The notes under the pieces were generated by a model. It worked only from the letters and a program-made list of their open reading frames with translations, did no database searches and was not told the origin of the DNA. Position numbers and translations under genes: made by a program. Of a stretch of 64,000 nucleotides of DNA, positions 2,579 to 64,000 are shown in pieces (the first letter of the stretch is position 1; each line of letters begins with the position of its first letter). Source of the DNA: Flectonema sp. DT1601 (taxonomy: Eukaryota); contig OZ025803.1 of NCBI GenBank assembly GCA_964019425.1, positions 1,116,001 to 1,180,000 of the forward strand. The letters are read 5' to 3'.

Positions 2579-3060
2579 ATGTCATACAGCGGTAAGGTCG
2601 TACGTTGGAACAGTCGTGGGTTCGGATTCATTCAGTGCAATGACTTCGATGAGGATCTGTTCGTTCACTTTTCTGCATTTGGAGGAGGTGATCTGACTGA
2701 GGGAGAGACCGTCACTTTCGATGTTGAGGACGATCCAAAGAACGGGAAGAAGAGATGCATCTCCGTTGAAGGTCCAGCTATCAACCGTGAACGTCCACCA
2801 GCAAGCAGAGGTGGAGGTGGTAGAGACAGATACGACTCCAGAGACCGCAGAGGTGGAGGTGGAGGCAGAGATGGAGGCAGAAGATACGACTCAAGAGACA
2901 GATACGATTCCAGAGACCGCAGAGGAGGAGGTGGAGGTGGTGGAGGCAGAAGATACGACTCAAGAGACAGGTACGACCGCAGGTATGCTGATGACAAATA
3001 GTTTCCTCTCAACCACTTGGATCTGTTATCGATCACTCCACGAATACTAAAAACAGGTAA
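2579..3060 (+). CDS. Cold-shock domain protein with RG/RD-rich tail, copy 2 (135 aa; intron 2983-3056)
   Basis: Near-identical paralog of copy 1, with a GTATG...AAACAG intron at the same position followed by G-TAA. Confidence 0.92.
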
Positions 3061-16281: not shown

Positions 16282-19200
16282 ATGGCTGAGATCATTCCTC
16301 TCCCTCCTCGACGTCAAGTTCATCGTCGTCTCCATCGACTTGGATACTACTGTTCTACTGAGAGTTCACCAACTGAATTAAATAATGATGAAGCATTAAA
16401 TCAACTGTTGCGGATTAGTGTTTTCGCATCAATTAAAAATCAACATGAGAGGGAAGAGATGTGTAAAAACATATTAAAAACAGCACCAAAAATAGTATTG
16501 TTAGGTGGGGATAAATTAGTACGCCAAGGTGTTGGTGGAGGGAAGACATATTTACTACTAAAAGGAACAGCTGTTTCGTACAACGTTGACGGGTCAACTG
16601 ACGTGATGAAGTCTGAAAGTGTGATTGATCTTCTTGAACTCTACAGAGCGTGTCCTCGACTCTCAACAGTCGTAGTGACGTCTGAAGAGCTTCTTGCAAT
16701 TCAAATCTCAAGGAGGATTTTTAAAGCCTCCTCACGAAGTCTTTCTGCTGACTCCAGCAGAGATGTCGAAGATCATTTTAGAAAATTATTTAATAAATTC
16801 ATATCAAAAACATTTTTATCAAAAATGAACTTCTTTGACGGAGGTAAACAAATACCTCCAAAACTATTCGAAAGTTTTGACACGGTAACTTATAATAAAC
16901 ATGAAGAGATTCCTCACAGTACTCAATTGACAATAATATTACGTGGGAGTATAGCCATGTATAGTTCACGTGAAGAAATTCCCATAAATTACACCGAACC
17001 TGAACAACTCATACGAAGTCATCACGACGTCTTAGACATTTCTACGAGGGGAGCTTACGGAGAGTTACAAAAAGCAAAGAAAGACATCAACAGCAAGTAC
17101 CTTCTCAACATAACGGGATCTCAGCCTCACGGTGCTGATCAAACTTCACTTTTATTAAAAAAAACAAATTCTGAAAGGGATACATTCGCTTCAGATACTC
17201 TTTTCGACTTGTCTCCTAACCTTATGAGTACAAGATTAAGTGAAGCTAGGGGTAGCAGTGCCTATGCTGCATCTTTTTTAAAAGGAATAGGAAATAATGA
17301 CCTCAATGAACAACAGAGTACTGCCGCACAATTAAACTTTTTAGATTCAGAACAGATGAAGTTACTTATGAATGAAGAGATCAGTTCCATTGGAATACCA
17401 AAACAGAAACTCAATAAAATTCAAAAAGCACCTCCTACTCCTCTTCCGATTGGGATTGATATCCTAAACAGCTCCTCAAGACATAAGGGATCTAATACAG
17501 TTGTTGTTGATTCGAATGTTGGTATTCTACTTGAAGGAAGTTCCGTATCAGAACTATCTCTGCTACACGACGTTCCGAGAACTGGTCATCTGATCGCGAG
17601 AACGCATTGCATCGCATTGAGAGTGACGTCTTCAAATTTTAAAAAGCTGATTAGGTTTGATCAGTGTCCTGTTTCTATTGGAAAGGGAATTACTTCAAGA
17701 TCTGAAAAGACTTATGAAAAGTTTATTATATTGAGAAACTTATCAAAAGTAACTCTGTTGACAATACCGGAGTTCTCGGATCCAGTTGTGGCTTCTCGAG
17801 GACCGCAGTGGTTCCTGAGGAGAATAAGCGAAGAAGTCAAATTCGTAACTTTCAGCACCGACGAAATCATCTCTGAAATGTATGAATCAAAAGTAGATTT
17901 AGCGATTCTAATCAGAGGGAAGGTCAGAGTAGAAACTCAAATAGGAACCACCACCTCCTACAGATATTTAGGAGATGAGAGCTGCCACGGAGAACTCAAT
18001 TTATTGTATGACATGCCTCGAACAGAACGGTTGGTTGCAGAGTCTGAATGTTCTTGTGTTTTACTTCAGAAGAAAGACTTTGAGAAAGTACTAACAGAAG
18101 CAAAGTATAATAAAGAATCTTTAACATCTCTCTGGTTAGATGAATACCGTAGTGTACTCGCTAATTTGATAACAGTAAGGTCAAAAGTCTTTTCATCTTG
18201 GCAACAAGCGATGGACGTGGCGAGCGTATGTATTCCGCAGACAAGTATTGCTGTTGATATTAATATCCCAAATATGAGTCACGCTACTCAGAATTTTGGA
18301 GGTTCATTCTGTAACCCATTTGGTAGTGTTGGGATTGATAACAACACGTCAGCTAGTTTAAACCTCCCGGCGTTGACTTCTATTTGTCAGACGAATGATA
18401 ATTTAATATCGCAACCCACGCGGATGGGATCAAAAACTTTTACTATTCCGAGTCTAAGAAGTTTTGTAAGTGGGTCTGAAGGCAGCTCACCCAATAGTCC
18501 AAAGTGTCTAGTTCTCAGTGATGAGGTGGAATCACCTCGTGGGATTAGAGCAAAGCTGAGGTCTCCTTCTAATGAAAATGATGGGTCGGAACCTCTCAAA
18601 AAAAGTTCAAAATCGATTTTACAAACTCACGTTGCCGGAACGGTTCTCAGCAATCCAGATAACGGAGATCTTAATGAACATATTATTATTGTTGTTAATG
18701 GAAAGGTTCGAATTAAACATCAACAAGACGTTGATGATAATCTTAAGAATGATCTCATCTTACGAGACGGTGATATCTACGGAGACGTGGCAGTCTTCTG
18801 TCCAACTCCTCGACACTTAGAAGTTATTTGTGAACTTGACACCACTGTCTGTATACTCGATAAGACTGATATTCCTTCAGCTGTTGTTGAACAAGTCGAA
18901 TCTCGTGCATGGCAATATTTAAGAAATGAAATATTATTTGAGATCCTTTCTAATATAAATGTTTTCGTATCTGTTGGTCGTGGGTTGGTTAAAACATTAG
19001 CTCAGAAGTTAGTTTATAAAGTGTACCATCCTCGGGATTATGTTCTACTAGAAGGGTCAGATGGATATCAATCGATGTATTTAATATCGAAGGGGAGTGT
19101 GAATGTTACTGTTGATGGTCTTTACTCATCATCACTTAGGGATGGTAGTCATTTTAATATTTTAGGAATGTTGCATGCAACTCCTAGAAAGTTTACTTTG

Positions 19201-22200
19201 GCAGCTACGAAATCAACTCATGTGTTCTCAATAACTCGTCAAGACTTTACCAATTGCCTTCGAAACAAACACCCCAACAGCTATAGTGCTTTTATTTTCC
19301 GAAGTGCTGCATTGTTTCACACTGCTACACTGCAGATCCTCGTTAACGCGGTTCCGCTATTTGCTAATGCATCGACTCAGATGCAAGGTTTGTATTTATT
19401 ATTAAAACTATTTGAGTTGACTGATGCGATTGATTTTATATTACAATCCGCCTAACAAAACAGAAATGCTAAGCGAGTGTCTAAAGCACTCAATGTATGA
19501 AGCAGGATCAACAGTTGTAGAACAGGGAGAGGGAGGTGATGGGATGTATTTCATAAGCAGAGGTAAGCTCTCCGTCTCAATTGATGATGTTGTTGTGAAG
19601 ATAATAAAAGACGGCGACTTCTTTGGGGAAGTCGCTTTATTTTACGACACTCCGAGAACAGCGACAGTCACTGCAGAAAGTCACAGCCACCTATTCGCTC
19701 TCAGCAAGGAAGACTTCGTTAACGTCGCTACTCAGTTCCCACTTGAGAATAATGTGATAAAGAAGATGGCTGAAAATAGATTTTATGATTTTGTTTTATC
19801 GATTTTAGTTAAGAAAGTTCCGTTGTTTGCTTCTGCGTCAGTCGCTTTCTTAAATGATTTACTGAGGAAGTTAGAATCTAAAATGTACAACAGCGGTGAA
19901 GTTGTCATTAATCAAGACGACACTGGTGAGGAGATGTATTTCGTATCTCGTGGGGAACTCGACATCTGCGTCAACGGTAAGAATGGTTTGAATTTATTTC
20001 ATTCATCTTTTGTTTTCTTAAAAATAATAAAACAAAACAACTCAAAACAGTCCATTCTCTTAAAGACGGTGATTTCTTTGGTGAGATAGCCTTAGTGTAC
20101 GACACGCCTCGAACTGCGTCAATTACAGCAGCGGTAAGTACACAAGTTTTCGTACTAAATAGAACTGACCTCCACAGTGTGATGAGGAAATATAAACAAG
20201 AAGGTCAACAGATATTAACAATTAGTAGACAAAGGTTGAATAAGTGTGTTTTGAATGACTTGATTAGAAAGGTTCCCATGTTCAAATTTTGCAAATCCGA
20301 CGATTTCATTTCTAAGATTGTTGACTGTCTTGTCCCAAGAGGATATGCTGCAGGTGACCTCATCGTTGAGGAAGGAAATGGAGGCGACGAAATGTACTTT
20401 GTTTCAAGAGGTGAGTTGCATGTGACTGTCGGTGGTGTTGTTATCAACAGAATGCAAGACGGGGATTTCTTTGGTGAAATCGCTCTCATATTTGACACAC
20501 CCCGAACGGCTACCATCACCGCAGCAACAAAAACACAAGTCTTCGTTCTTCATAGAAAACAATTCGCAAGTGTTCGAGTACTCTACGTTGACGATTCTCA
20601 TATAATACATCACACGGCTTTATCTAGACTTCGTTTATATACTTTGACTGACCTTATTAGAAAGGTTCCAATGTTTAATAGCTGTAGGGATAGCGTACTT
20701 ATAAAGGATATCTCAGAGATGTTACTTCCGAAAACATTCATCGAAGGGGAGAAGATCATAAGTGAAGGAGAAGGTGGTGATGAAATGTATTTTGTCAGCA
20801 GAGGTCGATTACAAGTAATTATTGATGGAAAGATTGTTCACAAGTTAACAGATGGTGATTTCTTTGGTGAAGTTTCATTGGTGTTTGATGCGCCTCGGAC
20901 AGCTTCTATCGTTGCTGAGACTAAGGGATCGCTTTTTGTTTTGAAAAAATCAAGTTTTCAGAGTGTGACATCCGCATACCCTGAAGAGACTTCGTACATT
21001 CGAACTTGTGCTCTCACTCGATTTCATGACATCTACCTGACGATGATTAAGAAGGTTCCTCTGTTCTCAAATGTTATGATGGGAAACAATCTATTCGTCA
21101 CGTCTTTAATTGAATTATTAAAACCTGCTCGTCATTCTCAAGGTACTTATGTTGTACGAGAAGGTGAGGGGGGTAGTGAAATGTATTTTATTCTGCGGGG
21201 ACAGCTTGCGTTGACAATTGGTGATCAATATATAGGTTTGTGTTTGTGTTTATTGTTCAACGCGGATAACTTAATGAGGACATTAAAATAACAACAACAG
21301 GACGTCTTCGTGACGGGGACTACTTTGGAGAGGTAGCCTTGCTGTACGACACTCCGAGAACGGCTTCTATTTATGTTGAGTTAGATTCTCAATTTCTGGT
21401 ACTCAGTCAGGAAGACTTCTTAAAGTGCGTTGTTCAGTTTCCACAGTTCCATAAAGAAGTTCAGCAACAGGCTGATGTCAGACTTCGAAATTTTGTCCTA
21501 CTTCAGATGGTTGAGAAAGTCCCGCTCTTCTATCACTGCGGAAGAGAGTTCAGTGAAGACTTAACTCAGTTACTACAACCCAGACTTGTTGAGAAGGATT
21601 TCATTATTATGAAGGAACACGAAGCAGGTAATGAAATGTTCTTTATATGTCGAGGTGAGGTAAGTATGCACAGAGATGGTGAATTCCTAGCCAGGGTTAC
21701 TGACGGAGGAATCTTTGGTGAGATCTCACTTGTTTACGACACCGCTCGTGTTGCGACTATCACGGCCACAGTGAAGACTCACTTGTTCGTTTTGAGTAAA
21801 AATGATTTCGATGTTGTAATGAAAAGATACCCTCGAGCTGCACGACTTCTCCTCGGTGTTGCAAAAGAAAGATTTCTTCAAATAGTTCTTCTTGATTTGG
21901 TTCGGAAGGTTCCTATCTTCAAAACAACAGATACTGTGAAACCAAACATGTCATTCTTGAAAGAAATCACATCTCGTTTGATCCCAAAACACTTCAACGC
22001 TGATGAGATCGTCGTCCTGGAGGGTGAAGGTGGTGATAAAATGTACTTCGTAAGCAACGGTAAGCTGCAGATAACACAACAGGGAAGTCCTCGTATGCTA
22101 TTTTATATTTTAATTACAGTCACTCACAACTACTAATTAAATACCACAACTACAGTATTCATCTTAGCAGACGGTGACTTCTTTGGTGAGATAGCCTTGG

Positions 22201-25200
22201 TGTACGACACTCCCAGAACAGCAACAATCACTTCAGTGACTAACTCACAATTATATATCTTAACCAGATCAGATTTCCACGACGTTATTATGACCTACCC
22301 GGATGAATCAGAAGGCATTGTAGAGATAGCAAAGAAACGTCTTCATGAACACGTCTTGAATGATTTCGTCAGAGATGTTCCACTCTTTGCGAGCTGCTCT
22401 GAGGAATTAGTAACTCAAATTGTTAGCGCCCTCCACCCATCAGTCGTTGATGGTGTTGTTATTTCTGAAGGAATGGGTGGAAATGAAATGTATTTCATAA
22501 GTAGAGGTCGACTTAATGTCTCATTAGGTGACAAGGAAGAGATTGTTCACAGACTTCAAGACGGTGATTTCTTTGGTGAAATCGCTCTTTTGTATGACAC
22601 GCCTCGAACAGCGACTATCACGACAGATGGTCCTGCTCAGTTATATATTTTAAGAAGAAATCAATTCTTATCAATTATCGAAACAAACAGCGAGGTCGCT
22701 GAAAGCATTAGAGAAGTAGCTCTCAATCGTTTTCGTGCAATCGTATTGGAAGATATCATATCAAAGATTCCTTTATTCTCTGATGATGATGATGACTCCA
22801 CATCGACTGAATCATTCCTTCAAGAAGTCGTCAAAAGATTAAAAATTAGATCATTCGAAAAGGACACTTTTATAATAAAAGAAGGTGAGGGAGGTGAGGA
22901 AATGTTTTTTGTTTCCAGAGGGAAGTTATTAGTTTACTCAAATGGAAAGCTGGTTGGAAAGCTCAAAGACGGAGGATTCTTTGGTGAGGTAGCTCTTCTT
23001 TACGACACTCCCAGAACAGCGAGTATCAGAGCTGAAACAAAAACTCAGCTATTCGAACTTTCAAAGAAAGATTTCGAAGAAGCTATCAAACCATTTCCTT
23101 TGAAGTCATCAAAAGTACAGTCGATTGCTAAAGAACGATTTCGTAAGTTCGTATTAGGAGATATGGTCAGAAAGGTTCCTTTATTCACGAGATGTAAAAC
23201 AACTGAAATGATAGAGGAAGTAATTGACCTCCTCCAACCTCAACTGTTTCCAGCAAACAGTACCGTCATCCAAGAAGGGGAAGGGGGATCTGAAATGTTT
23301 TTTATTTCAAGAGGTTCTCTCTCTGTTCTTAATTCCAAAGGAAATCAAGTCCACAGACTTGTTGATGGGAATTTCTTTGGTGAGATCGCAATGTTATTTG
23401 ACACTCCTCGAACAGCATCAGTGGTTACGTTAGTAGACAGTTACCTGTTCTCATTATCTGGTGAAGCATTTCGTGATGTTATAAAGAAATATCCTCATGA
23501 AGCAGCGTGGACTCGAGAAATAGCGGAATCACGTCTTCGTAAACATGTTTTACAAGACATCGTTAAGAATGTTCCGATATTTGCTTCTTGTAAAGAAGAT
23601 GCTTTCTTAACCAACATTGTGAGCCACTTAAAACCAAGAGGGTACTCTGAAGGACAAACTGTTATAACCGAAGGAGAAGGTGGTGATGAAATGTTTTTCA
23701 TCTCAAGAGGTGAACTCGAAATCATGTCTTCTAACGGAACAATATTACGAACCCTTCGCGATGGTGAGTTCTTTGGTGAGGTCGCTTTAGTGTTCGACAC
23801 TCCGAGAACAGCGACTATTAGAGCTGCTGCGAAAAGTCAACTTTTTGTTTTATCAAAAAAAGACTTCCAATCCGTCATTGAAACCAATCCAGCGATCGGA
23901 AAATCGATTCAAACGATCGCCAGGGAGAGGTTTTGTGGATTCGTGTTGACGGAGTTCGTGAGAAGAGTTCCTTTATTCCAATATTGTAGTCAGGACTTTA
24001 TTAATTGTTTAGTCGATAAAATGGAACCGAGTTCATTCGAAACTGGAGACATAATAATAAAAGAAGGACACGGAGGACAACAAATGTACTTCGTCAACAG
24101 AGGAATCCTCAACGTTGTTGTTGGTTCCGATGGAGGGGAAATTGTTCATACGATGAAAGACGGTGACTTTTTCGGTGAAGTCGCACTCGTATTTGAAACA
24201 CCGCGGACAGCGAGTATAATAGCCACTACTAAATCACAATTATTTATATTAACGAAGGATGACTTCAATTCAGTTATCAATGAATTCCCTTCTGAGTCAG
24301 ACAGAATCAGAGCCGTTGCTTCTGAAAGATTTCTACAATTCATCCTCCACGACATCGTTAAGAAGGTTCCTTTCTTCTCTGAATGTAAGTCAAGTGAGTT
24401 TTTAAGTCAAATAGTTCAGCTTCTCATTCTAAAAACTTACGAACAAAACGATCTAATTGTTGAAGAAGGAGAAGGTGGTGATGAAATGTATTTTGTTAGC
24501 AGAGGTGTTTTAGATGTTTTTGTATGCGGAGAGAAGGTCACTAAATTATGTGACGGCGACTTCTTTGGTGAGGTAGCTCTCGTATACGACACTCCTCGCA
24601 CCGCTTCAATTATTGCAGTTGAGAAGTCACAATTATATATTTTAACAAAAGAAGACTTAAATCGAGCTCTGATAGACCATCCTGAAGAAGTTCAAACCAT
24701 TAGCATCTCTGCGAGTATTCGATTAAAACAGTTCGTACTCTTTGATTTAGTAAGAAAGATTCCAATGTTCAAGGAGTGTACTGATCAAAGTATTATTTAC
24801 GAACTAGTCGATTTCTTATCACCCAGAAGTTGTATTGAGAACACTACTATCGTATCACAGCAACACGGTGGTGATGAAATGTACTTCGTAAGCAGAGGAC
24901 AGTTAGCAGTAGTAGTCGATAATAAAACTGTTCACACACTCAAAGACGGTGATTTCTTTGGTGAAGTAGCTCTCGTGTATGATACGCCTCGTACAGCAAC
25001 AATCACATGTTTGTGTCAGACTCAGTTATTCGTACTGACTAGGAGAGATTTTAATGCGGTCATTGAAAAATACGCCGGCACCCCAATTCATACGGCGATC
25101 TATAAAATATCTTCTCACAGATTCAAACGTTACGTACTAACAACACTCGTTGCTAAGGTTCCGATGTTCGAAGGGGTTTCTCAGGAATTTATTCACAGCG

Positions 25201-28200
25201 TTGTAGAGTTTCTAAAGCCTCGCAGCGTAAGCGGATTTGTGATCAAAGAGAACGACGACTCGAGTGAGGAAATGTATTTTGTTAGCCGAGGAGAGCTTCG
25301 AGTTACTGTTGCTGGTAAGGTATGAAATTATTGTTTCTGAAGTCCCCCTTTTTGGAAGTTGTCTTTAATATGATTCAAAGTATTCATCCGAACCTGATTC
25401 TTGTTTCTGATTTCAGTCAGTTTAAAGATAGTCTTACGGTGCTTCTTACGGAGTGTTTCTGTGGTTCAAAAATTAAATAAATAAAACAGACGGTACACAC
25501 AATGAGAGATGGAGACTTCTTTGGTGAAATCGCCCTGCTGTACGACACTCCCAGAACAGCATCCATCATAGCTGACCAGCCAACACAGTTGTTCATCCTG
25601 TCGAGAGCTTGCTTCGGTTCTGTAATCGACGCACACCCAACCGACGCTGAACCGATTAAAAAAATAGCAAGAGAGAGACTCGAACTGTACGTTCTGAATG
25701 ATTTGGTTAAGAAAGTTCCGATATTTGGAGCCGCAGAGGATGCGAATATAATAAAAAGGATCATCGCTGCTCTCATCCCTCGTAGTATTTGTAAAGGCGG
25801 GTGGGCGGTAAAGGAAGGCGAGTCAGCGAATGAGATGTTCTTCGTTTCTCGTGGAGAGCTGCGAGTAATAATGGAAGTTAACGGAAAGGAAGTTGTTGCT
25901 CAGTCTCTCAGAGATGGTGATTTCTGTGGTGAGGTTGCAATGGTATTTGATACCCCTCGCACAGCATCCATCATGGCTGCTGTTAAGACTCAAGTCTTCG
26001 TATTGACTCGAACTTCTTTTAATCGAATCTTAAAATCACAATCTGGTTGTCTTAAAGACAAAATGATTGAAGTCGCAAGAGAAAGGTTTAATAACTACAT
26101 CCTAAGAGATCTGGTCAGAAAGGTTCCAATATTTTCGAAAGCAGACAATAATTTTATTATTCAACTGGTGGCCGTAATGAACTCCGAGACATTCAAACCA
26201 GGTGAAGATATCGTATTCGAGGGTCAGGGTGGTGATCAGATGTACTTCATAAGTAGAGGTCGCTTAAATGTTATTTTATCAGGAGAACGTGTATTCTTAT
26301 TAAGCGACGGGGATTTCTTTGGAGAAATAGCACTCATTCTAGACACTCCACGAACTGCTTCGGTTGTTGCGGAAACAACAACAACTCTGTACTCTCTACA
26401 TCGAAATGACTTCAATCAAATCCTCACCAGACACCCAAAGATCCGTCGCTGTATTGAGCGAGTTGCTAAAGATCGTTTTAATCAAGTCGTATTGCAAGAA
26501 CTTATTAAAAAGGTTTCGATGTTCTCTCACTGTGACGATGACTTTATTAGTAACTTAGTTGAAAAAATGGATCATAAAAATGTTTCTGAAGGGGATTTCG
26601 TAGTCCGCGAAGGTCAAGGAGGCGATGAAATGTTTTTTGTAAGTAGAGGTATGTGTTTATTGTACTTTTTACTTCACATCAGTGATGACATGAAACCCTA
26701 AACTGATACTCAAACAGGTCACTTGGATGTAATCGTTTCTGTTGGATCAGAAGAAACAGTCGTGAGCTCATTAAAAGATGGTGACTTCTTTGGTGAGGTT
26801 GCATTAATTTATAGCACACCTCGCACTGCATCAATAAGGTCAACTACTCCTTCGACAATTTATGTTTTAAAAAAACAACATTTTCAACAACTGTTGTCGA
26901 CGAGTACTGCTGCTGAGGAAATTAAAAGAGTCGCGGAGTGTCGGTTTAAAAATCACATCCTACACAACTTGGTAAAGAAGGTTCCTCTCTTTGCTGATTC
27001 TGATAGTGACTTTATAACTGATTTAGTAGAGTGTTTGGATGCTCAATTTGTAACTCCAGGACAGAAAGTAATTAGAGAAGACGAAGGAGGTGATGAAATG
27101 TATTTTGTAGTGAGAGGAGTGTTGTCGACTCAAATATGTGGTGAGGAAGTACACGTTCTCAGAGATGGTGATTTCTTTGGTGAAATAGCCCTCTGTTATG
27201 ACACACCTCGTACAGCAACAATTACTTCTATCGGAGACAGTGAACTGTTTGTTCTTTATAAAGATGAGTTCACTAATGTGATGATGAAGTACCCGAAGGA
27301 GGCTCAACAAATTCAACAAATTGCTCGCCAGCGTCTCAACGCGTTTGTTCTTCGAGCAATTATTGAACGAGTTCCTCTCTTTAGTCAAATCACTTGCACA
27401 GATCAATCTAGTAGACAGGAATTCATATCTGAACTTGCATCTCGTCTAACGTACCACGTCATAGAGCCCCCAGAGAATAGGGAACAGTATTTCTTTGAGG
27501 AAGGTTTGCAAATAATTACATTTTCCCTTTTATTTTGACTTATAAACAACAACAACAACACAACAGGAGATGAAGCTGACGGAATGTATTTCGTAAGTCG
27601 AGGATCTGTCATTGTTTTGATTGACTACGAACAGATGTTTAGTATCAAAGACGGAGGATTCTTTGGTGAGATAGCCTTGATATACGACATACCTCGTAGG
27701 GGTAGCGTCGTTATTCAAAGTACGGTTTCTATTTTTAAACTTAAGAGGAATGATTTCAATGAGATCACCAGAAAGTATCCTTCTATTGAACGAGGTCTTC
27801 ATGAAGCTGCGAAGATTAGAATGAAATCAATCATATCAACTGACTTGGTAAGATACGTTCCGTTATTTAGTGCGATGAGACACGATGAAGTCTTTCTTCA
27901 TGAGATCTCTTGTAGACTAACTCCTGTAGTCGTTGAAAAAGATTCTGAAATCTCATTGGAAACTCCCGGCTTACTAATATTATGTTGTGGTAAGGTATCA
28001 GTTGAAACTGTTGAAGGGGATGATGATAAAATAACAAAACCAGAAGTAATAACCCCAGGGGGTTTCTTTGGTGAGACAGCAATGCTATACGACAGAAAAA
28101 TAATTAAAAGTGCTGTTGCGATATTGAAGAGTACTCTTTATCACTTTAGTAGAACATCATTTTTACAACTACGAGACCAATATCCTCTCATTGCTGAGGT

Positions 28201-28480
28201 GTACAGAGAACCAGCTCGAAGGAAGATTAATCTTTTATTTTCTCGTAATAAATTATACTCATTTGAATATGCTTGTGAGCTGCTAGCTGACTCTACAGAA
28301 AGGGGATGTATTCGTCGATGTTATACTCGATTGTTTCTAAATATATTATCTCATCATACGAGAGTCTGTTCTCAAAGAACTGAACAATCAATAAGTATCA
28401 AAGAAAGGAAGAAGACAATCGCAATTACTAAAATTAGAAAACTCAAAAGGATGATGTCCAGTAGCCGGCTTGGTTTGTGA
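16282..28480 (+). CDS. Giant tandem cyclic-nucleotide-binding (cNMP) domain protein, ~3875 aa, 8 exons, ~26 CNB domains
   Basis: Eight ORFs join in phase via introns 19388-19463, 19986-20050, 21236-21300, 22093-22155, 25320-25489, 26649-26717 and 27504-27566. The repeated unit is KVPLF...EGEGGDEMYFVSRG...DGDFFGEIAL.YDTPRTA. Confidence 0.92.
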
Positions 28481-52394: not shown

Positions 52395-54732
52395 ATGTTA
52401 TCGGAGACGAGACCTCGCACTACGAAGATAGAAATAGAAGTTGAAGACGCGAGTAGTGATGATGAGATACCTGGTATGCAATTGAGACCTAGGGGGGGTG
52501 CAGTCCCGGTTGGAATGGGAGGATACATGCTTCAGATATATAAAGACTCAAGTATTCAGTACAGCACGCCGTACTCAGATGTTACATTCAATGGTGAAGG
52601 TGCTGGAGAGGTGGTTGATAATTACTTTACGAGTGAATTATTATATAAACATGCTGGCACTCCAAGTGTGAGCGTCAACAGCAGTTTTGCTTCTGCCGCA
52701 CTCACACCTCCATTAACATGTAGAAGTGATCCACTTCATGGAGAGACTGATACTTCTAGTATGAGCATTGTTATTGAAAAACTTGCTGGTGATGAACTCT
52801 CCCTGTCATTCTCAGAGGGAGCTCTTATTGTTGAGTCCACTAATGACCCGGCTCTTGAAATTGTAGTCGGCAAGCGACTAACACATGTTGGTGGTTGTCA
52901 GATGGTCACTCCTCAAGATGTCTCCTCCAGCGCTCGCGGGGCCACCGTTCTCACCCTGCGATTCAGAGACGAGCAATATACACCTGACTATGCCGGTTGG
53001 CTTGAAAAGAAGGGTGCCTCAGGGCTCTTGAAGCTCTACCGTCGTCGTTGGTGTGAAATATATAAACAATACCTCCACTATGGTGTGGCCATGGGCGAAC
53101 AATGTGTTGGAAAGATTGACTTGGCAAATGCTCAGGTTGAGGTCTGCGAGTCAGGAGATCGGCTTCACGCATTTGCGATATCTGGAAGACATCTTCCGAG
53201 AACATATGAACTGGCAACCGAAACCGAAGGTGAGAGGAATGCCTGGATTAGGGCAATCACTCGCACTATAAACAAGTACGAAGCTGCAGGAGCAGAGGAG
53301 ATGGAGGACTGGCTAACTGGACTTCTTCCTTCTGCTAAGGGTTTAACACTTCAGGATTTTGACTTACACTGCGTCGTGGGAAAAGGGAGTTTTGCAAAGG
53401 TTCTAAAAAGCACTCTAAAACAACCAATAAGTCAGAATCCACAACGTAGAGAATGGCTTACAAGAGGTCTAACAGACTTCTATCAGCACTACAGACCTGA
53501 AAGGGTGTCTGGGGTTGCCACCATTATCACCCACAGCACTGGACAAGAAGAACATCTTTACAAGCAGCTACTTGGAAGGTATCCTCATGCAGAAAGTGAC
53601 CTAAAATGGTTGTTGAATCCTCCAAAAGTTCACACAGTCGCAGAAGCTGTGTTTGCTATGAAAATAGTAAAGAAAGCAGCTCTCCCGTCCATCAGAATAG
53701 CCCGAATGATGATGGAAGAAAAGGCGATCCTTCAAAGTATGAAGCATCCTTACATAGTTCGATTACATTATGCTTTTCAAAATAAGGCAAAGTTGTATTT
53801 GGTGATGACTTACTTGTCTGGGGGAGATCTTCGAACTCACTTAACTAAGCATAGAAAATTCCCTGAATCCCGAGCTAAGTTTTACTGCTGTCAGATATTG
53901 TTAGCGCTGGATCACTTACATGCACATGGAATAGTGTACCGAGATTTAAAACCTCAGAATGTTGTTCTTGATGCTGATGGCCATGCTGTTCTCACAGACC
54001 TGGGACTTGCAACAGACATAACTCAATCTGGTAGGGTATGTAGTTATTGCAGACGTTTACAATCTTTGACTCAACTCTAACACCCACAAACAGGCATATA
54101 CTTTTTGTGGAACACCTCAGTACGTAGCTCCTGAGGTTCTGCAGGGATCCGGATACACAAAGGCCGTTGACTTTTGGGCGCTGGGTATAATGGTATGGAT
54201 TTTATTCTGTTCCGATTGTGGTAATTGTAATTATGTTGGCAACAACGAAATCAACAAACAGGCGTTTGAGATGTTGGTGGGTGTGACACCATTCCAAGCA
54301 GGGGATTCGATCAGAGAAATGTTTATTAGAATAATGGAGGATGACATACGATATCCTGCAGCAGTCAGTAAGAATGCCCGAGAATTTATAACCTTTGCAT
54401 TGGCAAGGGATCCGGCACACCGACTGAACACTATTGCAACAGCCAAGCAGCTGAGATTTTTTAGGGGGACAGCGTGGTCTGATCTGCTGTCTCGTAAGGT
54501 AGCCGCTCCATATGTCCCTGAAGCAGACTTTTGCAACAATTCAAAAGAGAGACCCCTCACAGACCTGCTTTTAGACGGCTCCCCAGAGGGATCCATAAAC
54601 TCCGACCTCGAAGATGAGTTTGAAGGATTCACGTTCCTGCAGGGAATGCCGCAGCGTACATCCGAACGTCGCGGTAGGCAGGCAGCTCTAAAGCACCGAG
54701 ATCCCCTGATGGATATTCCCACAGTGACTTAG
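52395..54732 (+). CDS. PH-domain AGC-family Ser/Thr kinase (PKB/S6K-like), ~736 aa; introns 54036-54093, 54193-54261
   Basis: PH domain (GWLEKKG...RRRW...ERNAWIRAI). Kinase motifs GKGSFAKV, AMK, YRDLKPQN, DLG, TFCGTPQYVAPE (in the short middle exon), DFWALG and the hydrophobic motif FEGFTF. Confidence 0.93.
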
Positions 54733-55578: not shown

Positions 55579-55650
55579 AGCGGCTCCCGAGAATCGAACT
55601 CGGGTCTCCACGGCCACAACGAGGTGTTCTAACCATTAAACTAGAGCCGC
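55579..55650 (-). tRNA. trnH-GUG: tRNA-His (anticodon GUG)
   Basis: The reverse complement GCGGCTCTAGTTTAATGGTTAGAACACCTCGTTGTGGCCGTGGAGACCCGAGTTCGATTCTCGGGAGCCGCT folds as a cloverleaf with acceptor stem GCGGCTC/GAGCCGC, T-loop TTCGATT and anticodon GTG. A T5 Pol III terminator lies just downstream. Confidence 0.96.
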
Positions 55651-55721
55651 TTCAAAAGTTTTTGCTTTTTTTTTTTGCGTCTTTTATTTTTGCGTTTTTT
55701 CTATTTTGGGAACCTCCCTAG

Positions 55722-57239
55722 CCGTACTCTCAACTCCTGCTAAGTGTACGCTACAAGATGTGTAGGGCCTATGAAGAATTCAAATTAAGTCCCCACCTAC
55801 CAGCTTGTAGCCTCACAATGACGGAGGGAGGCCTAAACTACCCACCAAAAACAGCTTGGGGTCGCATAGTTTGGGATGAATATGTGTCGGGGATCCCGGG
55901 ACTCGACAAACACAGAAGCTCGTATCACTCGGAAATCAATCCAAAGCACTATAAGATGCGATCATGGAAGGTAACTAATGCAATGGAATTCAACTACTGT
56001 TTTGGAAAAGAAGAGGCAAAAGACAAAGAAGCCGGTCTACCAATTGAAGACGTGAAGGTGTACACAGATGGGTCTATTAGACATAGGACGAAGACGTACA
56101 TGACTAAGTCAGGAGCATCTGTGATAATAGTGAAGGGTAAGGAAGTTAGCATGACCGGATTCAGAATACCTGTAGCAGGAAGCTCCTACAGAACTGAACA
56201 GATAGCCGTGGAACAAGCGATGAGGATACTCCTGGAAAACAAAAAGGCATCCGAAGGAATACTTCCCACAACAAAGACGCATATTCTAACTGACTCAATG
56301 TCGCTAATACAGGCACTTGAGCGAGGACCTGAAGAACAGAAATCTGCTACAAACGCATCAATCTGGAAGTTAGCACTGAAACTGGAACACAGAGGTGTTA
56401 ATATTAACATGCAGTATGTCCCAGCACATATGGATGTGCTGTATAATGAAATAGCAGACAAGGTGGCAAAACACGCTGCAGGTACGATAAAGAAACCTCC
56501 AGATGACAGTGTGGTACTCGAGAGTTTAGTTACTAGACTGGATATGGGAACCCTTATGACTTTTCACAAGAGAAGAAAACGAGAGGAGTGGATTGGAGCC
56601 GGCGAACAGAGGCATCCACCTTTTGTAGAAGAACTGACGAGACCACAAGAAGTCCTAATGTCCCGCTTCAGAGTTGGACACTGTAGATCTCTTAAACTAA
56701 AAGGAATAAACGAACAGTGCATCTTCTGTCATGGAGATACTGCAACACCGCATCATGTGCTTTTCAAGTGCAACCACTGGTGTATCCAAAAGATGAGATC
56801 ATTGTACATACACAGCATGATTAATACCGAAACTGGTGAAGTAGTGAGTAAAGTAGAGGACTGCTTCTTAAAGGAGAATCAACGCAGCATGTCCAACTTT
56901 GTAGTGGTACTGGACCAAATAGCTGAAATACTCGGAAGACCTGGAAATCCATAATTTAAAGATGCGGTTCTTAGACCAAATGAGGAAGTAAACTGAACTC
57001 TTTAGTAATTGATAAACAAAGAAAACAAAGAAGATACGAAGCCTACGGGAACCCCCCATCCCATCCCCAATCCCCACAAAAAGAAAGTTTACAGAAGAAA
57101 GAAAGAACAACCGCGCCTAACAGCGCAAACAGCAAAGCAGGTCGAAGGAACCTGCAGTGCACACAAAAAAAACATCATAAGGATCGCTGGTTCCGAGGGT
57201 TTGCTCTCCCACTTACCTGCCTCTCTATCCCTCAAAAAA
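55722..57239 (+). mobile_element. 5'-truncated non-LTR retrotransposon (ingi/I-group-like 3' end: RNase H, CCHC knuckle, 3' UTR, short poly-A)
   Basis: The frame is open from 55722 to 56954 and has no RT domain. About 280 nt of 3' UTR end in an A-run (57234-57239) directly before the SL. The 5' boundary is approximate (~55710-55722). Confidence 0.8.
55758..56954 (+). CDS. Non-LTR-type RNase H plus C-terminal CCHC zinc knuckle (C-terminal part of a retrotransposon ORF2)
   Basis: RNase HI catalytic motifs VYTDGS, SYRTE..A, ILTDSMS and YVPAH...NEIAD..AK. Then LTRPQEVLMSRFRVGH and CIFC-x8-HVLFKC, typical of LINE ORF2 C-termini. Confidence 0.88.
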   Translation: MCRAYEEFKLSPHLPACSLTMTEGGLNYPPKTAWGRIVWDEYVSGIPGLDKHRSSYHSEINPKHYKMRSWKVTNAMEFNYCFGKEEAKDKEAGLPIEDVKVYTDGSIRHRTKTYMTKSGASVIIVKGKEVSMTGFRIPVAGSSYRTEQIAVEQAMRILLENKKASEGILPTTKTHILTDSMSLIQALERGPEEQKSATNASIWKLALKLEHRGVNINMQYVPAHMDVLYNEIADKVAKHAAGTIKKPPDDSVVLESLVTRLDMGTLMTFHKRRKREEWIGAGEQRHPPFVEELTRPQEVLMSRFRVGHCRSLKLKGINEQCIFCHGDTATPHHVLFKCNHWCIQKMRSLYIHSMINTETGEVVSKVEDCFLKENQRSMSNFVVVLDQIAEILGRPGNP

Positions 57240-57278
57240 AACCAACGATTCTAAAGCTACAGTTTCTGTACTTTATTG
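57240..57278 (+). other. Complete 39-nt spliced-leader (mini-exon) sequence, retroposed (not an SL RNA gene)
   Basis: AACCAACGATTCTAAAGCTACAGTTTCTGTACTTTATTG has the euglenozoan length, the AAC(C/T)AACG start and the conserved CAGTTTCTGTACTTTATTG end. It is followed by TTTTTTCCC rather than a GT SL-intron. Confidence 0.93.
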
Positions 57279-60200
57279 TTTTTTCCCTCCCTCGCCCCAT
57301 CCCCGTCAGCGAGTAGGAAAGCGCAGCTAGGAATTTTTCCACGCAAGCGGATCCCACAACCCGACCACCCTTCCCCACGCTCACCCCATCCACCCTCCCC
57401 CACCCCAACAAAAGAAGAAAACGGCGGCAGCCACGTGACACACTCGTGTTCGTGTAGCGAAGCGTTTCGGCGACTTCGAAGACGACGACGACGACGACGA
57501 CGTAGAAGAGACGGTGTATGTGACTGACCTTCTTCTTCCTTATTTATTTGTTTACTTTTGTTAATTACTTCCTCTTAATTTCATTCCTCTCTTAGATTGT
57601 TGTTTATTTGCTTATTTATTTGTTTGTTTATTTGTCTGTTTATCTGTCTGTATATTCTGTTACTATCTGTTATTTTGTTACATTTATCTGTAGTACATTT
57701 TTGTTATTGTTAAATTAAAACATCTTCTTCACAGTTTTTTCCCTCCCTCGCCCCATCCCCGTCAGCGAGTAGGAAAGCGCAGCTAGGAATTTTTCCACGC
57801 AAGCGGATCCCACAACCCGACCACCCTTCCCCACGCTCACCCCATCCACCCTCCCCCACCCCAACAAAAGAAGAAAACGGCGGCAGCCACGTGACACACT
57901 CGTGTTCGTGTAGCGAAGCGTTTCGGCGACTTCGAAGACGACGACGACGACGACGACGTAGAAGAGACGGTGTATGTGACTGACCTTCTTCTTCCTTATT
58001 TATTTGTTTACTTTTGTTAATTACTTCCTCTTAATTTCATTCCTCTCTTAGATTGTTGTTTATTTGCTTATTTATTTGTTTGTTTATTTGTCTGTTTATC
58101 TGTCTGTATATTCTGTTACTATCTGTTATTTTGTTACATTTATCTGTAGTACATTTTTGTTATTGTTAAATTAAAACATCTTCTTCACAGTTTTTTCCCT
58201 CCCTCGCCCCATCCCCGTCAGCGAGTAGGAAAGCGCAGCTAGGAATTTTTCCACGCAAGCGGATCCCACAACCCGACCACCCTTCCCCACGCTCACCCCA
58301 TCCACCCTCCCCCACCCCAACAAAAGAAGAAAACGGCGGCAGCCACGTGACACACTCGTGTTCGTGTAGCGAAGCGTTTCGGCGACTTCGAAGACGACGA
58401 CGACGACGACGACGTAGAAGAGACGGTGTATGTGACTGACCTTCTTCTTCCTTATTTATTTGTTTACTTTTGTTAATTACTTCCTCTTAATTTCATTCCT
58501 CTCTTAGATTGTTGTTTATTTGCTTATTTATTTGTTTGTTTATTTGTCTGTTTATCTGTCTGTATATTCTGTTACTATCTGTTATTTTGTTACATTTATC
58601 TGTAGTACATTTTTGTTATTGTTAAATTAAAACATCTTCTTCACAGTTTTTTCCCTCCCTCGCCCCATCCCCGTCAGCGAGTAGGAAAGCGCAGCTAGGA
58701 ATTTTTCCACGCAAGCGGATCCCACAACCCGACCACCCTTCCCCACGCTCACCCCATCCACCCTCCCCCACCCCAACAAAAGAAGAAAACGGCGGCAGCC
58801 ACGTGACACACTCGTGTTCGTGTAGCGAAGCGTTTCGGCGACTTCGAAGACGACGACGACGACGACGACGTAGAAGAGACGGTGTATGTGACTGACCTTC
58901 TTCTTCCTTATTTATTTGTTTACTTTTGTTAATTACTTCCTCTTAATTTCATTCCTCTCTTAGATTGTTGTTTATTTGCTTATTTATTTGTTTGTTTATT
59001 TGTCTGTTTATCTGTCTGTATATTCTGTTACTATCTGTTATTTTGTTACATTTATCTGTAGTACATTTTTGTTATTGTTAAATTAAAACATCTTCTTCAC
59101 AGTTTTTTCCCTCCCTCGCCCCATCCCCGTCAGCGAGTAGGAAAGCGCAGCTAGGAATTTTTCCACGCAAGCGGATCCCACAACCCGACCACCCTTCCCC
59201 ACGCTCACCCCATCCACCCTCCCCCACCCCAACAAAAGAAGAAAACGGCGGCAGCCACGTGACACACTCGTGTTCGTGTAGCGAAGCGTTTCGGCGACTT
59301 CGAAGACGACGACGACGACGACGACGTAGAAGAGACGGTGTATGTGACTGACCTTCTTCTTCCTTATTTATTTGTTTACTTTTGTTAATTACTTCCTCTT
59401 AATTTCATTCCTCTCTTAGATTGTTGTTTATTTGCTTATTTATTTGTTTGTTTATTTGTCTGTTTATCTGTCTGTATATTCTGTTACTATCTGTTATTTT
59501 GTTACATTTATCTGTAGTACATTTTTGTTATTGTTAAATTAAAACATCTTCTTCACAGTTTTTTCCCTCCCTCGCCCCATCCCCGTCAGCGAGTAGGAAA
59601 GCGCAGCTAGGAATTTTTCCACGCAAGCGGATCCCACAACCCGACCACCCTTCCCCACGCTCACCCCATCCACCCTCCCCCACCCCAACAAAAGAAGAAA
59701 ACGGCGGCAGCCACGTGACACACTCGTGTTCGTGTAGCGAAGCGTTTCGGCGACTTCGAAGACGACGACGACGACGACGACGTAGAAGAGACGGTGTATG
59801 TGACTGACCTTCTTCTTCCTTATTTATTTGTTTACTTTTGTTAATTACTTCCTCTTAATTTCATTCCTCTCTTAGATTGTTGTTTATTTGCTTATTTATT
59901 TGTTTGTTTATTTGTCTGTTTATCTGTCTGTATATTCTGTTACTATCTGTTATTTTGTTACATTTATCTGTAGTACATTTTTGTTATTGTTAAATTAAAA
60001 CATCTTCTTCACAGTTTTTTCCCTCCCTCGCCCCATCCCCGTCAGCGAGTAGGAAAGCGCAGCTAGGAATTTTTCCACGCAAGCGGATCCCACAACCCGA
60101 CCACCCTTCCCCACGCTCACCCCATCCACCCTCCCCCACCCCAACAAAAGAAGAAAACGGCGGCAGCCACGTGACACACTCGTGTTCGTGTAGCGAAGCG

Positions 60201-63200
60201 TTTCGGCGACTTCGAAGACGACGACGACGACGACGACGTAGAAGAGACGGTGTATGTGACTGACCTTCTTCTTCCTTATTTATTTGTTTACTTTTGTTAA
60301 TTACTTCCTCTTAATTTCATTCCTCTCTTAGATTGTTGTTTATTTGCTTATTTATTTGTTTGTTTATTTGTCTGTTTATCTGTCTGTATATTCTGTTACT
60401 ATCTGTTATTTTGTTACATTTATCTGTAGTACATTTTTGTTATTGTTAAATTAAAACATCTTCTTCACAGTTTTTTCCCTCCCTCGCCCCATCCCCGTCA
60501 GCGAGTAGGAAAGCGCAGCTAGGAATTTTTCCACGCAAGCGGATCCCACAACCCGACCACCCTTCCCCACGCTCACCCCATCCACCCTCCCCCACCCCAA
60601 CAAAAGAAGAAAACGGCGGCAGCCACGTGACACACTCGTGTTCGTGTAGCGAAGCGTTTCGGCGACTTCGAAGACGACGACGACGACGACGACGTAGAAG
60701 AGACGGTGTATGTGACTGACCTTCTTCTTCCTTATTTATTTGTTTACTTTTGTTAATTACTTCCTCTTAATTTCATTCCTCTCTTAGATTGTTGTTTATT
60801 TGCTTATTTATTTGTTTGTTTATTTGTCTGTTTATCTGTCTGTATATTCTGTTACTATCTGTTATTTTGTTACATTTATCTGTAGTACATTTTTGTTATT
60901 GTTAAATTAAAACATCTTCTTCACAGTTTTTTCCCTCCCTCGCCCCATCCCCGTCAGCGAGTAGGAAAGCGCAGCTAGGAATTTTTCCACGCAAGCGGAT
61001 CCCACAACCCGACCACCCTTCCCCACGCTCACCCCATCCACCCTCCCCCACCCCAACAAAAGAAGAAAACGGCGGCAGCCACGTGACACACTCGTGTTCG
61101 TGTAGCGAAGCGTTTCGGCGACTTCGAAGACGACGACGACGACGACGACGTAGAAGAGACGGTGTATGTGACTGACCTTCTTCTTCCTTATTTATTTGTT
61201 TACTTTTGTTAATTACTTCCTCTTAATTTCATTCCTCTCTTAGATTGTTGTTTATTTGCTTATTTATTTGTTTGTTTATTTGTCTGTTTATCTGTCTGTA
61301 TATTCTGTTACTATCTGTTATTTTGTTACATTTATCTGTAGTACATTTTTGTTATTGTTAAATTAAAACATCTTCTTCACAGTTTTTTCCCTCCCTCGCC
61401 CCATCCCCGTCAGCGAGTAGGAAAGCGCAGCTAGGAATTTTTCCACGCAAGCGGATCCCACAACCCGACCACCCTTCCCCACGCTCACCCCATCCACCCT
61501 CCCCCACCCCAACAAAAGAAGAAAACGGCGGCAGCCACGTGACACACTCGTGTTCGTGTAGCGAAGCGTTTCGGCGACTTCGAAGACGACGACGACGACG
61601 ACGACGACGTAGAAGAGACGGTGTATGTGACTGACCTTCTTCTTCCTTATTTATTTGTTTACTTTTGTTAATTACTTCCTCTTAATTTCATTCCTCTCTT
61701 AGATTGTTGTTTATTTGCTTATTTATTTGTTTGTTTATTTGTCTGTTTATCTGTCTGTATATTCTGTTACTATCTGTTATTTTGTTACATTTATCTGTAG
61801 TACATTTTTGTTATTGTTAAATTAAAACATCTTCTTCACAGTTTTTTCCCTCCCTCGCCCCATCCCCGTCAGCGAGTAGGAAAGCGCAGCTAGGAATTTT
61901 TCCACGCAAGCGGATCCCACAACCCGACCACCCTTCCCCACGCTCACCCCATCCACCCTCCCCCACCCCAACAAAAGAAGAAAACGGCGGCAGCCACGTG
62001 ACACACTCGTGTTCGTGTAGCGAAGCGTTTCGGCGACTTCGAAGACGACGACGACGACGACGACGACGTAGAAGAGACGGTGTATGTGACTGACCTTCTT
62101 CTTCCTTATTTATTTGTTTACTTTTGTTAATTACTTCCTCTTAATTTCATTCCTCTCTTAGATTGTTGTTTATTTGCTTATTTATTTGTTTGTTTATTTG
62201 TCTGTTTATCTGTCTGTATATTCTGTTACTATCTGTTATTTTGTTACATTTATCTGTAGTACATTTTTGTTATTGTTAAATTAAAACATCTTCTTCACAG
62301 TTTTTTCCCTCCCTCGCCCCATCCCCGTCAGCGAGTAGGAAAGCGCAGCTAGGAATTTTTCCACGCAAGCGGATCCCACAACCCGACCACCCTTCCCCAC
62401 GCTCACCCCATCCACCCTCCCCCACCCCAACAAAAGAAGAAAACGGCGGCAGCCACGTGACACACTCGTGTTCGTGTAGCGAAGCGTTTCGGCGACTTCG
62501 AAGACGACGACGACGACGACGACGACGTAGAAGAGACGGTGTATGTGACTGACCTTCTTCTTCCTTATTTATTTGTTTACTTTTGTTAATTACTTCCTCT
62601 TAATTTCATTCCTCTCTTAGATTGTTGTTTATTTGCTTATTTATTTGTTTGTTTATTTGTCTGTTTATCTGTCTGTATATTCTGTTACTATCTGTTATTT
62701 TGTTACATTTATCTGTAGTACATTTTTGTTATTGTTAAATTAAAACATCTTCTTCACAGTTTTTTCCCTCCCTCGCCCCATCCCCGTCAGCGAGTAGGAA
62801 AGCGCAGCTAGGAATTTTTCCACGCAAGCGGATCCCACAACCCGACCACCCTTCCCCACGCTCACCCCATCCACCCTCCCCCACCCCAACAAAAGAAGAA
62901 AACGGCGGCAGCCACGTGACACACTCGTGTTCGTGTAGCGAAGCGTTTCGGCGACTTCGAAGACGACGACGACGACGACGACGTAGAAGAGACGGTGTAT
63001 GTGACTGACCTTCTTCTTCCTTATTTATTTGTTTACTTTTGTTAATTACTTCCTCTTAATTTCATTCCTCTCTTAGATTGTTGTTTATTTGCTTATTTAT
63101 TTGTTTGTTTATTTGTCTGTTTATCTGTCTGTATATTCTGTTACTATCTGTTATTTTGTTACATTTATCTGTAGTACATTTTTGTTATTGTTAAATTAAA

Positions 63201-64000
63201 ACATCTTCTTCACAGTTTTTTCCCTCCCTCGCCCCATCCCCGTCAGCGAGTAGGAAAGCGCAGCTAGGAATTTTTCCACGCAAGCGGATCCCACAACCCG
63301 ACCACCCTTCCCCACGCTCACCCCATCCACCCTCCCCCACCCCAACAAAAGAAGAAAACGGCGGCAGCCACGTGACACACTCGTGTTCGTGTAGCGAAGC
63401 GTTTCGGCGACTTCGAAGACGACGACGACGACGACGACGTAGAAGAGACGGTGTATGTGACTGACCTTCTTCTTCCTTATTTATTTGTTTACTTTTGTTA
63501 ATTACTTCCTCTTAATTTCATTCCTCTCTTAGATTGTTGTTTATTTGCTTATTTATTTGTTTGTTTATTTGTCTGTTTATCTGTCTGTATATTCTGTTAC
63601 TATCTGTTATTTTGTTACATTTATCTGTAGTACATTTTTGTTATTGTTAAATTAAAACATCTTCTTCACAGTTTTTTCCCTCCCTCGCCCCATCCCCGTC
63701 AGCGAGTAGGAAAGCGCAGCTAGGAATTTTTCCACGCAAGCGGATCCCACAACCCGACCACCCTTCCCCACGCTCACCCCATCCACCCTCCCCCACCCCA
63801 ACAAAAGAAGAAAACGGCGGCAGCCACGTGACACACTCGTGTTCGTGTAGCGAAGCGTTTCGGCGACTTCGAAGACGACGACGACGACGACGACGTAGAA
63901 GAGACGGTGTATGTGACTGACCTTCTTCTTCCTTATTTATTTGTTTACTTTTGTTAATTACTTCCTCTTAATTTCATTCCTCTCTTAGATTGTTGTTTAT
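57279..64000 (+). repeat. Tandem array of 456/459-bp units (14 complete + 1 partial, runs off the window)
   Basis: Unit starts at 57279, 57735, 58191, 58647, 59103, 59559, 60015, 60471, 60927, 61383, 61842, 62301, 62760, 63216 and 63672. Units appear identical except (GAC)7 versus (GAC)8 in the three units starting at 61383, 61842 and 62301. Each unit ends in a pyrimidine-rich acceptor catcttcttcacAG. Confidence 0.98.

What the first reader, a model, noticed from the sequence alone, without database searches (positions are those of the whole stretch)
57240..57734. Genomic spliced leader fused exactly at the repeat's AG acceptor: a fossil trans-splicing product
Seen: every internal unit reads ...catcttcttcacAG|TTTTTTCCCTCCCTCG, while the first reads SL...CTTTATTG|TTTTTTCCCTCCCTCG. 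The T6 is the same and the replacement is base-exact at the AG. Established: trans-splicing joins the 39-nt SL to the base after an AG preceded by a pyrimidine tract. Inference: the repeat is transcribed and trans-spliced, and the product was reverse-transcribed all the way to SL position 1 and integrated. Downstream acceptors remain unspliced, so the template was a partly processed multi-unit RNA, or the array expanded later.
Basis: partly seen in the sequence, partly recalled or inferred. Interest (0 to 1): 0.85.

Follow-up and report, generated by a model that had tools for sequence, protein, structure and literature searches.

The report
Spliced leader capping a satellite array
In the genome of what is likely a diplonemid (a marine flagellate), an exact DNA copy of the 39-letter leader that these cells splice onto their messenger RNAs heads a tandem repeat, just where every other repeat copy has a splice-like signal and right behind the tail of a jumping gene, so the repeat's RNA was likely spliced like a messenger and likely copied back into DNA by that jumping gene.

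Summary
Observation confirmed. The 39-mer at 57240-57278 replaces the bases up to the AG that precedes the T6 in 14 of 14 later units of a 456-bp array. It is a true spliced-leader (SL) exon: it is followed by a GT donor in contigs of 3 of 4 public runs that also hold the repeat. The host is likely a diplonemid near Flectonema.

A 5'-truncated non-LTR retrotransposon (LINE; 401 of 401 residues identical to an intact family member) ends in a short A-tail flush with SL base 1. It starts 96 bp upstream of a tRNA-His gene and has no target duplication of its own.

Best reading: the LINE's reverse transcriptase copied a trans-spliced repeat RNA to its cap end, then jumped to a LINE RNA. The SL|repeat junction rests on one assembly; no RNA was available and the array's far end is outside the window. 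This is a new variant of SL-tagged retrocopies, known from dinoflagellates.

Side result: giant-virus-like contigs carry this same SL 18-19 nt behind an early-promoter motif.

The parts
55579..55650 (-). tRNA-His(GTG) gene, 5' end facing the insertion; the only tRNA in the window
   Evidence: Rfam RF00005, E 9e-11; ARAGORN
55651..55746 (.). 96-bp spacer between the tRNA 5' end and the LINE's truncation point; T-rich, then about 40 bp of unknown origin
   Evidence: sequence; no match above 8 nt to the unit, the LINE or the SL side
55747..56954 (+). 5'-truncated LINE ORF: residues about 920-1321 of a single-ORF endonuclease + reverse transcriptase + RNase H protein; only RNase H and the C-terminus remain
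   Evidence: RNase H E 5e-12; 0 of 401 differences from intact P0006; domains of P0005; a contig in run X1 continues the ORF 5' of 55747 (loose end translated by eye)
56955..57233 (+). LINE 3' untranslated region
   Evidence: follows the stop at 56952-56954; variant copies in runs X1 and X2
57234..57239 (+). short A-tail (6 A, then the 2 A of the SL), flush with SL base 1
   Evidence: a variant copy with 2 more A also abuts the SL in one record of run X2
57240..57278 (+). complete 39-nt spliced-leader exon without its GT intron
57279..57734 (+). first 456-bp unit: C/A-rich first half, T-rich second half, ends in CACAG; only ATG is followed at once by a stop
57519..57734 (+). T-rich tract (56% T) ending in the putative trans-splice acceptor AG at 57733-57734, repeated in every unit
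   Evidence: acceptor function inferred
57279..64000 (+). tandem array, 14.7 copies, runs off the window
   Evidence: the unit closes head-to-tail in 4 of 4 runs laid

Best explanation
A whole spliced-leader exon sits in the DNA between a truncated LINE's A-tail and the first unit of a 456-bp array, and it is likely the cDNA copy of a trans-spliced repeat RNA, likely made by that LINE family's reverse transcriptase in one event with a template jump. Steps: (1, inferred) the non-coding array is transcribed, probably by read-through, and the SL is spliced onto a unit's CACAG. (2, inferred) Reverse transcription runs right to left through that RNA to SL base 1. It was primed either on a partly processed multi-unit RNA or inside an existing array; this is not resolved. 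(3, inferred) At the cap end the enzyme jumps to the A-tail of a LINE RNA, copies 1.49 kb and stops. (4, shown as anatomy only) That end is joined 96 bp upstream of a tRNA-His gene. The genomic SL has no GT donor and is probably inert.
For: Both SL ends are exact exon borders, and the 3' end replaces the unit's AG base-exactly. The acceptor resembles other sites in the window. Two cis-introns ending in ACAG restore a 736-residue kinase when removed, and putative acceptors before two ORFs end in CACAG. A reverse transcriptase source is adjacent and young: 0 of 401 differences from intact P0006. It belongs to a 39-member cluster, with two sister clusters of 31 and 91, and 4 related clusters come from a Flectonema neradi transcriptome. 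The order second template, A-tail, complete 5' end of first template is the order of known template-switch chimeras (PMC4476161, passages). No target-site duplication brackets the LINE piece alone; the best shared string is 8 nt and touches neither LINE end. One 151-nt record in run X2 joins a variant LINE 3' end and A-tail to SL bases 1-27, hinting that tail|SL junctions recur. It is a single record at depth 2.8 and below the tool's 31-letter bar.
Against: The SL|T6 junction is known only from this assembly. The AG used is not the unit's most pyrimidine-rich one: 0.64 against 0.81 and 0.71 for two YAGs further upstream. One G of overlap means the AG match alone has a 1-in-4 chance at any G. 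Unit 1 is complete, unspliced downstream and has no poly(A), which a fully processed monomer RNA would be expected to have (inference). The far end of the insertion, where a tail and target duplication should be, is outside the window. In the U6/L1 chimeras read the LINE is the first template, not the second as here. Blunt or deleting insertions also lack duplications, so two events are not excluded.
Confidence: 0.45

Rival explanations
1. The array is the 5' region of a full-length LINE whose RNA is trans-spliced. Complete copies begin SL + n units + ORF, and the window shows a head-to-tail pair of LINE copies at a tRNA-upstream site. Each unit carries a spare acceptor, so a copy that has lost its first acceptor to splicing can still be spliced in the next round.
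For: It explains tail|SL contact here and in run X2, same-strand order, and near-perfect unit identity. LINE and unit occur in the same runs X1 and X2. The LINE 3' UTR and the unit share a 37-column C-rich/A-rich stretch (0 of 300 dinucleotide shuffles, 2 of 300 block shuffles reach the score; low complexity, weak). [quoted passage not shown]
Against: At least 6.7 kb of repeat would precede a 4-kb ORF. Efficient splicing should favour the last acceptor and shorten the array (inference). The unit closes on itself in 4 of 4 runs with no listed loose end leading into a LINE (contigs drop rare forms). The related trypanosomatid L1Tc/ingi elements make unspliced RNA (PMC1874656).
Confidence: 0.2
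2. Two events. An SL-capped repeat retrocopy came first. The LINE later inserted at the SL's first bases because the family prefers SL sequence or the tRNA-upstream spot.
For: The X2 record shows another subfamily's tail on SL base 1 and ends before showing whether GT follows, so it may be an insertion into an SL RNA gene. SL-gene-targeting retrotransposons exist in trypanosomatids (PMC12278014), and SLACS-like reverse transcriptases are annotated in Diplonema (PMC10161547).
Against: No duplication around the LINE piece. Known SL-targeting elements carry a restriction-like endonuclease, whereas this family has an AP-type one plus RNase H. 0 of 54 metagenome SL matches have four A directly upstream and none of the loci encodes this LINE.
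Confidence: 0.15
3. No RNA step. The junction is a DNA rearrangement between an SL RNA gene and the array at a shared G, or an assembly or library chimera.
For: One letter of overlap. All three partners are multicopy. SL genes lie among tRNA genes in some relatives.
Against: It needs two breaks exactly at the exon borders, with no promoter or intron base kept. The SL gene's flanks in runs X1-X3 are not beside the SL here. GAC-length variants occur in blocks along the array, as in a resolved long-read array (inference).
Confidence: 0.12
4. The SL is hard-wired and used: transcripts start at SL base 1 in the DNA and mimic a spliced message, as appears to be the case in giant-virus-like contigs.
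For: 20 of 54 metagenome matches and 8 of 8 matches on one IMG/VR contig are genome-encoded SLs 18-19 nt behind a promoter-like motif.
Against: The window has a LINE tail, not that motif, upstream, and the array has no reading frame after the SL.
Confidence: 0.05

Closest known systems
SL-tagged retrogenes of dinoflagellates (PMC5585692 abstract; PMC6050394 passages)
   Same: A DNA copy of the trans-spliced leader marks an RNA that was reverse-transcribed and integrated.
   Different: Euglenozoan 39-nt SL, complete and unworn; the copied RNA is a non-coding tandem repeat; unspliced parent acceptors lie next to it; a LINE, not the LTR elements favoured in PMC6050394, is the adjacent enzyme source.
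Template-switch chimeras such as U6/L1 (PMC4476161 passages); end-to-end jumping by R2 reverse transcriptase (title seen in a reference list; content recalled)
   Same: Two RNAs joined head-to-tail in one insertion; reported for L1, L2 and RTE clades.
   Different: Here the LINE would be the second template and an SL-capped RNA the first; the enclosing duplication could not be checked.
CRE clade (SLACS, CZAR, CRE1, CRE2), SL-gene-specific retrotransposons (PMC12278014 passages)
   Same: A non-LTR element's A-tail lies against SL sequence.
   Different: Those carry a restriction-like endonuclease and sit in SL RNA genes; this one has an AP endonuclease and RNase H, and no SL intron follows.
L1Tc/ingi of trypanosomatids (PMC1874656 passages)
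   Same: AP endonuclease, reverse transcriptase and RNase H in a euglenozoan LINE.
   Different: Their RNAs are unspliced and start at an internal promoter. No ingi or L1Tc name appeared among the 120 listed of 167 homologs (most rows carry no name).
TRE5-A of Dictyostelium (PMC5911963, PMC3159450 passages)
   Same: AP-endonuclease LINE upstream of a tRNA gene in opposite orientation.
   Different: 44-54 bp there, 96 bp here; one site only, so targeting is not shown.

Membership tests
SL-tagged retrocopy | Genomic leader equals the organism's SL exon | tested here: met
   Exact 39-mer + GT in 3 of 4 runs, which also hold the unit; X1 holds LINE pieces with 2 differences in 859 nt
SL-tagged retrocopy | No SL intron; leader joined at the parent's acceptor | tested here: met
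   T6 follows; 14 of 14 other units have CACAG there
SL-tagged retrocopy | Parent RNA is really trans-spliced at that AG | not testable with these tools
   No RNA data were available to lay
SL-tagged retrocopy | 3' poly(A) and target-site duplication | not testable with these tools
   Far end outside the window; no genome held
SL RNA gene | GT donor and intron after the exon; tandem SL copies | tested here: not met
   One copy, followed by T6
CRE clade SL-targeting retrotransposon | Restriction-like endonuclease | tested here: not met
   P0005 has Exo_endo_phos_2, RVT_1 and RNase_H
CRE clade SL-targeting retrotransposon | Inserted in an SL RNA gene | tested here: not met
   Left flank is a tRNA upstream region, right flank lacks the intron
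Template-switch chimera | No duplication between the two parts | tested here: met
Template-switch chimera | One duplication enclosing both parts | not testable with these tools
   Far end outside the window
Ingi/L1Tc clade | AP endonuclease + RT + RNase H | tested here: met
Ingi/L1Tc clade | RT phylogeny and the 77-nt 5' hallmark | not tested
   No tree was built; no 5' end of a full-length copy was available
tRNA-targeted LINE (TRE5-like) | Many copies at a fixed distance upstream of tRNA genes | tested here: inconclusive
   1 of 1 site in the window fits in orientation, at 96 bp

The most novel reading that the evidence does not exclude
The 456-bp units are self-renewing splice-acceptor modules at the head of a diplonemid LINE. 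The element lets the host cap its RNA by trans-splicing, loses the front units each round, and stays viable because every remaining unit carries another acceptor. This would be the trans-splicing counterpart of tandem promoter modules and the opposite of the unspliced strategy of trypanosome LINEs.
Probability: 0.2. Interest if true: 0.8.

Novelty: new variant of a known kind. Interest (0 to 1): 0.5.

Why it matters
It is a before-and-after record of trans-splicing in one stretch of DNA: 14 unspliced acceptors beside one spliced copy. If real, a diplonemid satellite is transcribed and SL-capped, and a likely active LINE can copy capped host-type RNA to its first base. That would give Euglenozoa the RNA-recycling route known from dinoflagellates and a way to seed or move satellite arrays. 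None of the papers listed by searches describes this in diplonemids (titles and abstract starts only). It is one locus, probably without function, so its value lies in what a whole-genome check may show.

Tried and rejected
No whole genome was held, so the array's far end and other SL copies were not seen; the contig is 117,846 bp.

Sequencing runs: no RNA holder listed. The 4 listed runs hold 0.06-0.21 of the words. No contig of the 4 runs bridges SL|T6; contigs drop rare forms, so this shows nothing either way. Depths were not used as copy numbers.

Collection scans: the exact junction pattern gave 0 hits in metagenome contigs. A unit pattern gave 0 in viral and 0 in prokaryote contigs, and the LINE gave no confirmed viral locus.

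The unit itself: Rfam finds nothing in the unit or the LINE UTR, and did not flag the SL. The idea that CACGTGACAC in the unit is an SL-promoter element was dropped: GTGAC was in 4 of 28 SL-gene upstream regions at scattered places. No B-box-like match in the unit (motif recalled). No coding role on the + strand; a 106-residue stop-to-stop frame on the - strand was not studied.

LINE and other look-ups: 6 start variants of the truncated LINE protein were not in the protein collection, so no link to a downstream full copy could be made. The ESM Atlas gave no lineage. The first kinase splice test was out of frame and was corrected.

Literature: 7 supplements of PMC10161547 gave 0 hits. Its Additional file 1, on repeats and SL genes, seems not to be among them and may bear on novelty. 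Passages of PMC11771631 and bioRxiv 10.64898/2026.09.29.755400 were not useful. Earlier-finding look-ups by place, sequence and array words were empty.

Full report
Observation. The window ends in a 456-bp tandem array of 14.7 copies from 57279. The 14 complete units differ only in a GAC run. Of 15 unit starts, 14 follow CATCTTCTTCACAG and the first follows a 39-mer found once in the window.

Is it the real leader? Contigs of 3 of 4 public runs hold the same 39 letters followed by GTACAGTCTCAA, an SL RNA gene. All 4 runs hold the unit closed head-to-tail, two of them with 1 substitution and 12 gap letters. Run X1 also holds four LINE pieces with 2 differences in 859 nt, so it likely contains the same or a very close species. 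A metagenome scan gave 54 matches in 52 loci; 35 are followed by GT and 31 of these are exact. A published euglenozoan SL differs at 2 of 39 places (PMC3795323, passage). Diplonema SL genes have a 39-bp exon (PMC10161547, section 10).

Host. A window ATPase is 91% identical over 1033 residues to a Flectonema neradi protein. The long ORFs all lie on the + strand, and a kinase has two GT-AG introns. This fits a diplonemid.

Left of the SL lie six A, a 279-bp untranslated stretch and an ORF remnant with RNase H. The remnant is residues 920-1321 of a LINE protein with endonuclease, reverse transcriptase and RNase H domains. It has 0 of 401 differences from intact P0006 and 2-4 from seven others; two members did not end in register. 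The cluster has 39 members, with sister clusters of 31 and 91. Four related clusters come from the Flectonema transcriptome. The truncation is at 55747, 96 bp from the 5' end of a tRNA-His gene on the other strand. No duplication brackets the LINE piece. One 151-nt record in run X2 joins a variant LINE end, a longer A-run and SL bases 1-27. It is a hint only, and it does not show what follows the SL.

Mechanism. The anatomy is shown; the steps are inferred. Trans-splicing adds the 39-nt leader at an acceptor and discards what lies upstream (PMC1874656, passages). An exon with both borders exact, placed on the unit's AG, is what a cDNA of a spliced RNA looks like; I put this at about 0.85. The AG alone is weaker evidence (19 of 76 G positions), and two other YAGs in the unit are more pyrimidine-rich. 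The site does resemble the window's intron ends and putative acceptors. Reverse transcription moves from an RNA's 3' end to its 5' end, so a LINE tail flush with SL base 1 and no duplication suggest a jump from the cap end to a LINE RNA. This resembles template-switch chimeras (PMC4476161, passages), though with the LINE second. Whether the rest of the array came from a long partly processed RNA, from later expansion, or was already there cannot be told, because unit 1 equals the others.

Rivals. The array may be the 5' region of a full LINE (0.2), with spare acceptors in every unit. A weak shared low-complexity stretch and the TRE5-A parallel fit this; the length of the array does not. Two separate insertions (0.15) would need SL or site preference. 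This family lacks the restriction-like endonuclease of SL-targeting elements, and 0 of 54 SL matches have an A-run upstream. A DNA-level join or assembly chimera (0.12) remains because the junction is known from one assembly. A used, hard-wired SL (0.05) lacks a promoter motif and a reading frame here.

Comparison. It works like the SL-tagged retrocopies of dinoflagellates (PMC5585692, abstract; PMC6050394, passages). It meets two defining features and two could not be tested. It is not an SL RNA gene and not a CRE-clade insertion. Trypanosome LINEs of the same domain set make unspliced RNA. Searches listed no paper on SL retrocopies or SL-capped satellites in diplonemids; I saw listings only. 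Earlier unchecked notes of this scan report SL-headed retrotransposons in euglenids and dinoflagellates; they are leads, not support.

Side result. One 237.8-kb IMG/VR contig carries this SL at 8 pattern matches (4 exact, 4 with the last base changed) plus worn copies. Each of the 8 lies 18-19 nt behind an AAA(A/T)TGA motif and before an ATG. The loci encode VLTF3, Bro-N and ankyrin proteins. In metagenomes 20 of 54 matches have the same layout; none of the other 34 does. A giant-virus bin has it too (L063), and L067 carries a kinetoplastid-type SL without that spacing. AAAAATTGA is the Mimiviridae early promoter, and the Bodo saltans virus paper does not mention encoded leaders in the passages seen (PMC5871332). 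A 2021 review lists no verified diplonemid virus (PMC8061765, passage). Searches listed no paper on this; earlier scan notes describe it for dinoflagellate and kinetoplastid leaders.

Verdict. A real feature, probably a recent reverse-transcription fossil; a new variant of a known kind; interest 0.5. The far end of the array and RNA reads decide between the best reading and the novel one.

Noticed in passing
L001-L008 and L061-L064, L066, L068 (IMG/VR contigs); L012-L015, L019, L020, L023, L025, L027-L029, L034-L037, L046, L050, L056, L058, L059 (metagenome contigs): Giant-virus-like, AT-rich contigs encode the diplonemid-type SL 18-19 nt behind an early-promoter motif and shortly before an ATG: 20 of 54 metagenome matches and 8 of 8 on one 237.8-kb viral contig. 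Likely mRNA mimicry or a trace of captured host mRNAs, and a marker for viruses of diplonemids. It may be more interesting than the finding itself.
   Followed up: partly
L067:281-319: A 110-kb IMG/VR contig carries a kinetoplastid-type SL without GT and without the 18-19 nt promoter spacing.
   Followed up: no
L024, L052, L039, L017, L022, L032, L045, L057, L016: SL RNA genes lie within or beside dense tRNA clusters, up to 42 tRNA genes in 5.2 kb; 13 of 32 SL-gene loci scanned hold tRNA genes.
   Followed up: no
window 55579-55747: LINE 5' end 96 bp upstream of the only tRNA gene, in opposite orientation as for TRE5; possible tRNA-directed insertion, one site only.
   Followed up: partly
window 16195-28480: About 12 kb of consecutive + strand frames with roughly 28 cyclic-nucleotide-binding domains, broken by stops or frame changes; probably one giant intron-containing gene.
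   Followed up: no
window 1342-1887 and 2414-3001: Two tandem cold-shock-domain genes with repeated acidic tails.
   Followed up: no
window 57054-57086 and 57384-57420: LINE 3' UTR and repeat unit share a C-rich then A-rich stretch; low complexity, 2 of 300 block shuffles reach the score.
   Followed up: partly
window 54036-54093 and 54193-54261: Two short GT-AG introns (58 and 69 bp) in a PH-domain kinase gene.
   Followed up: yes
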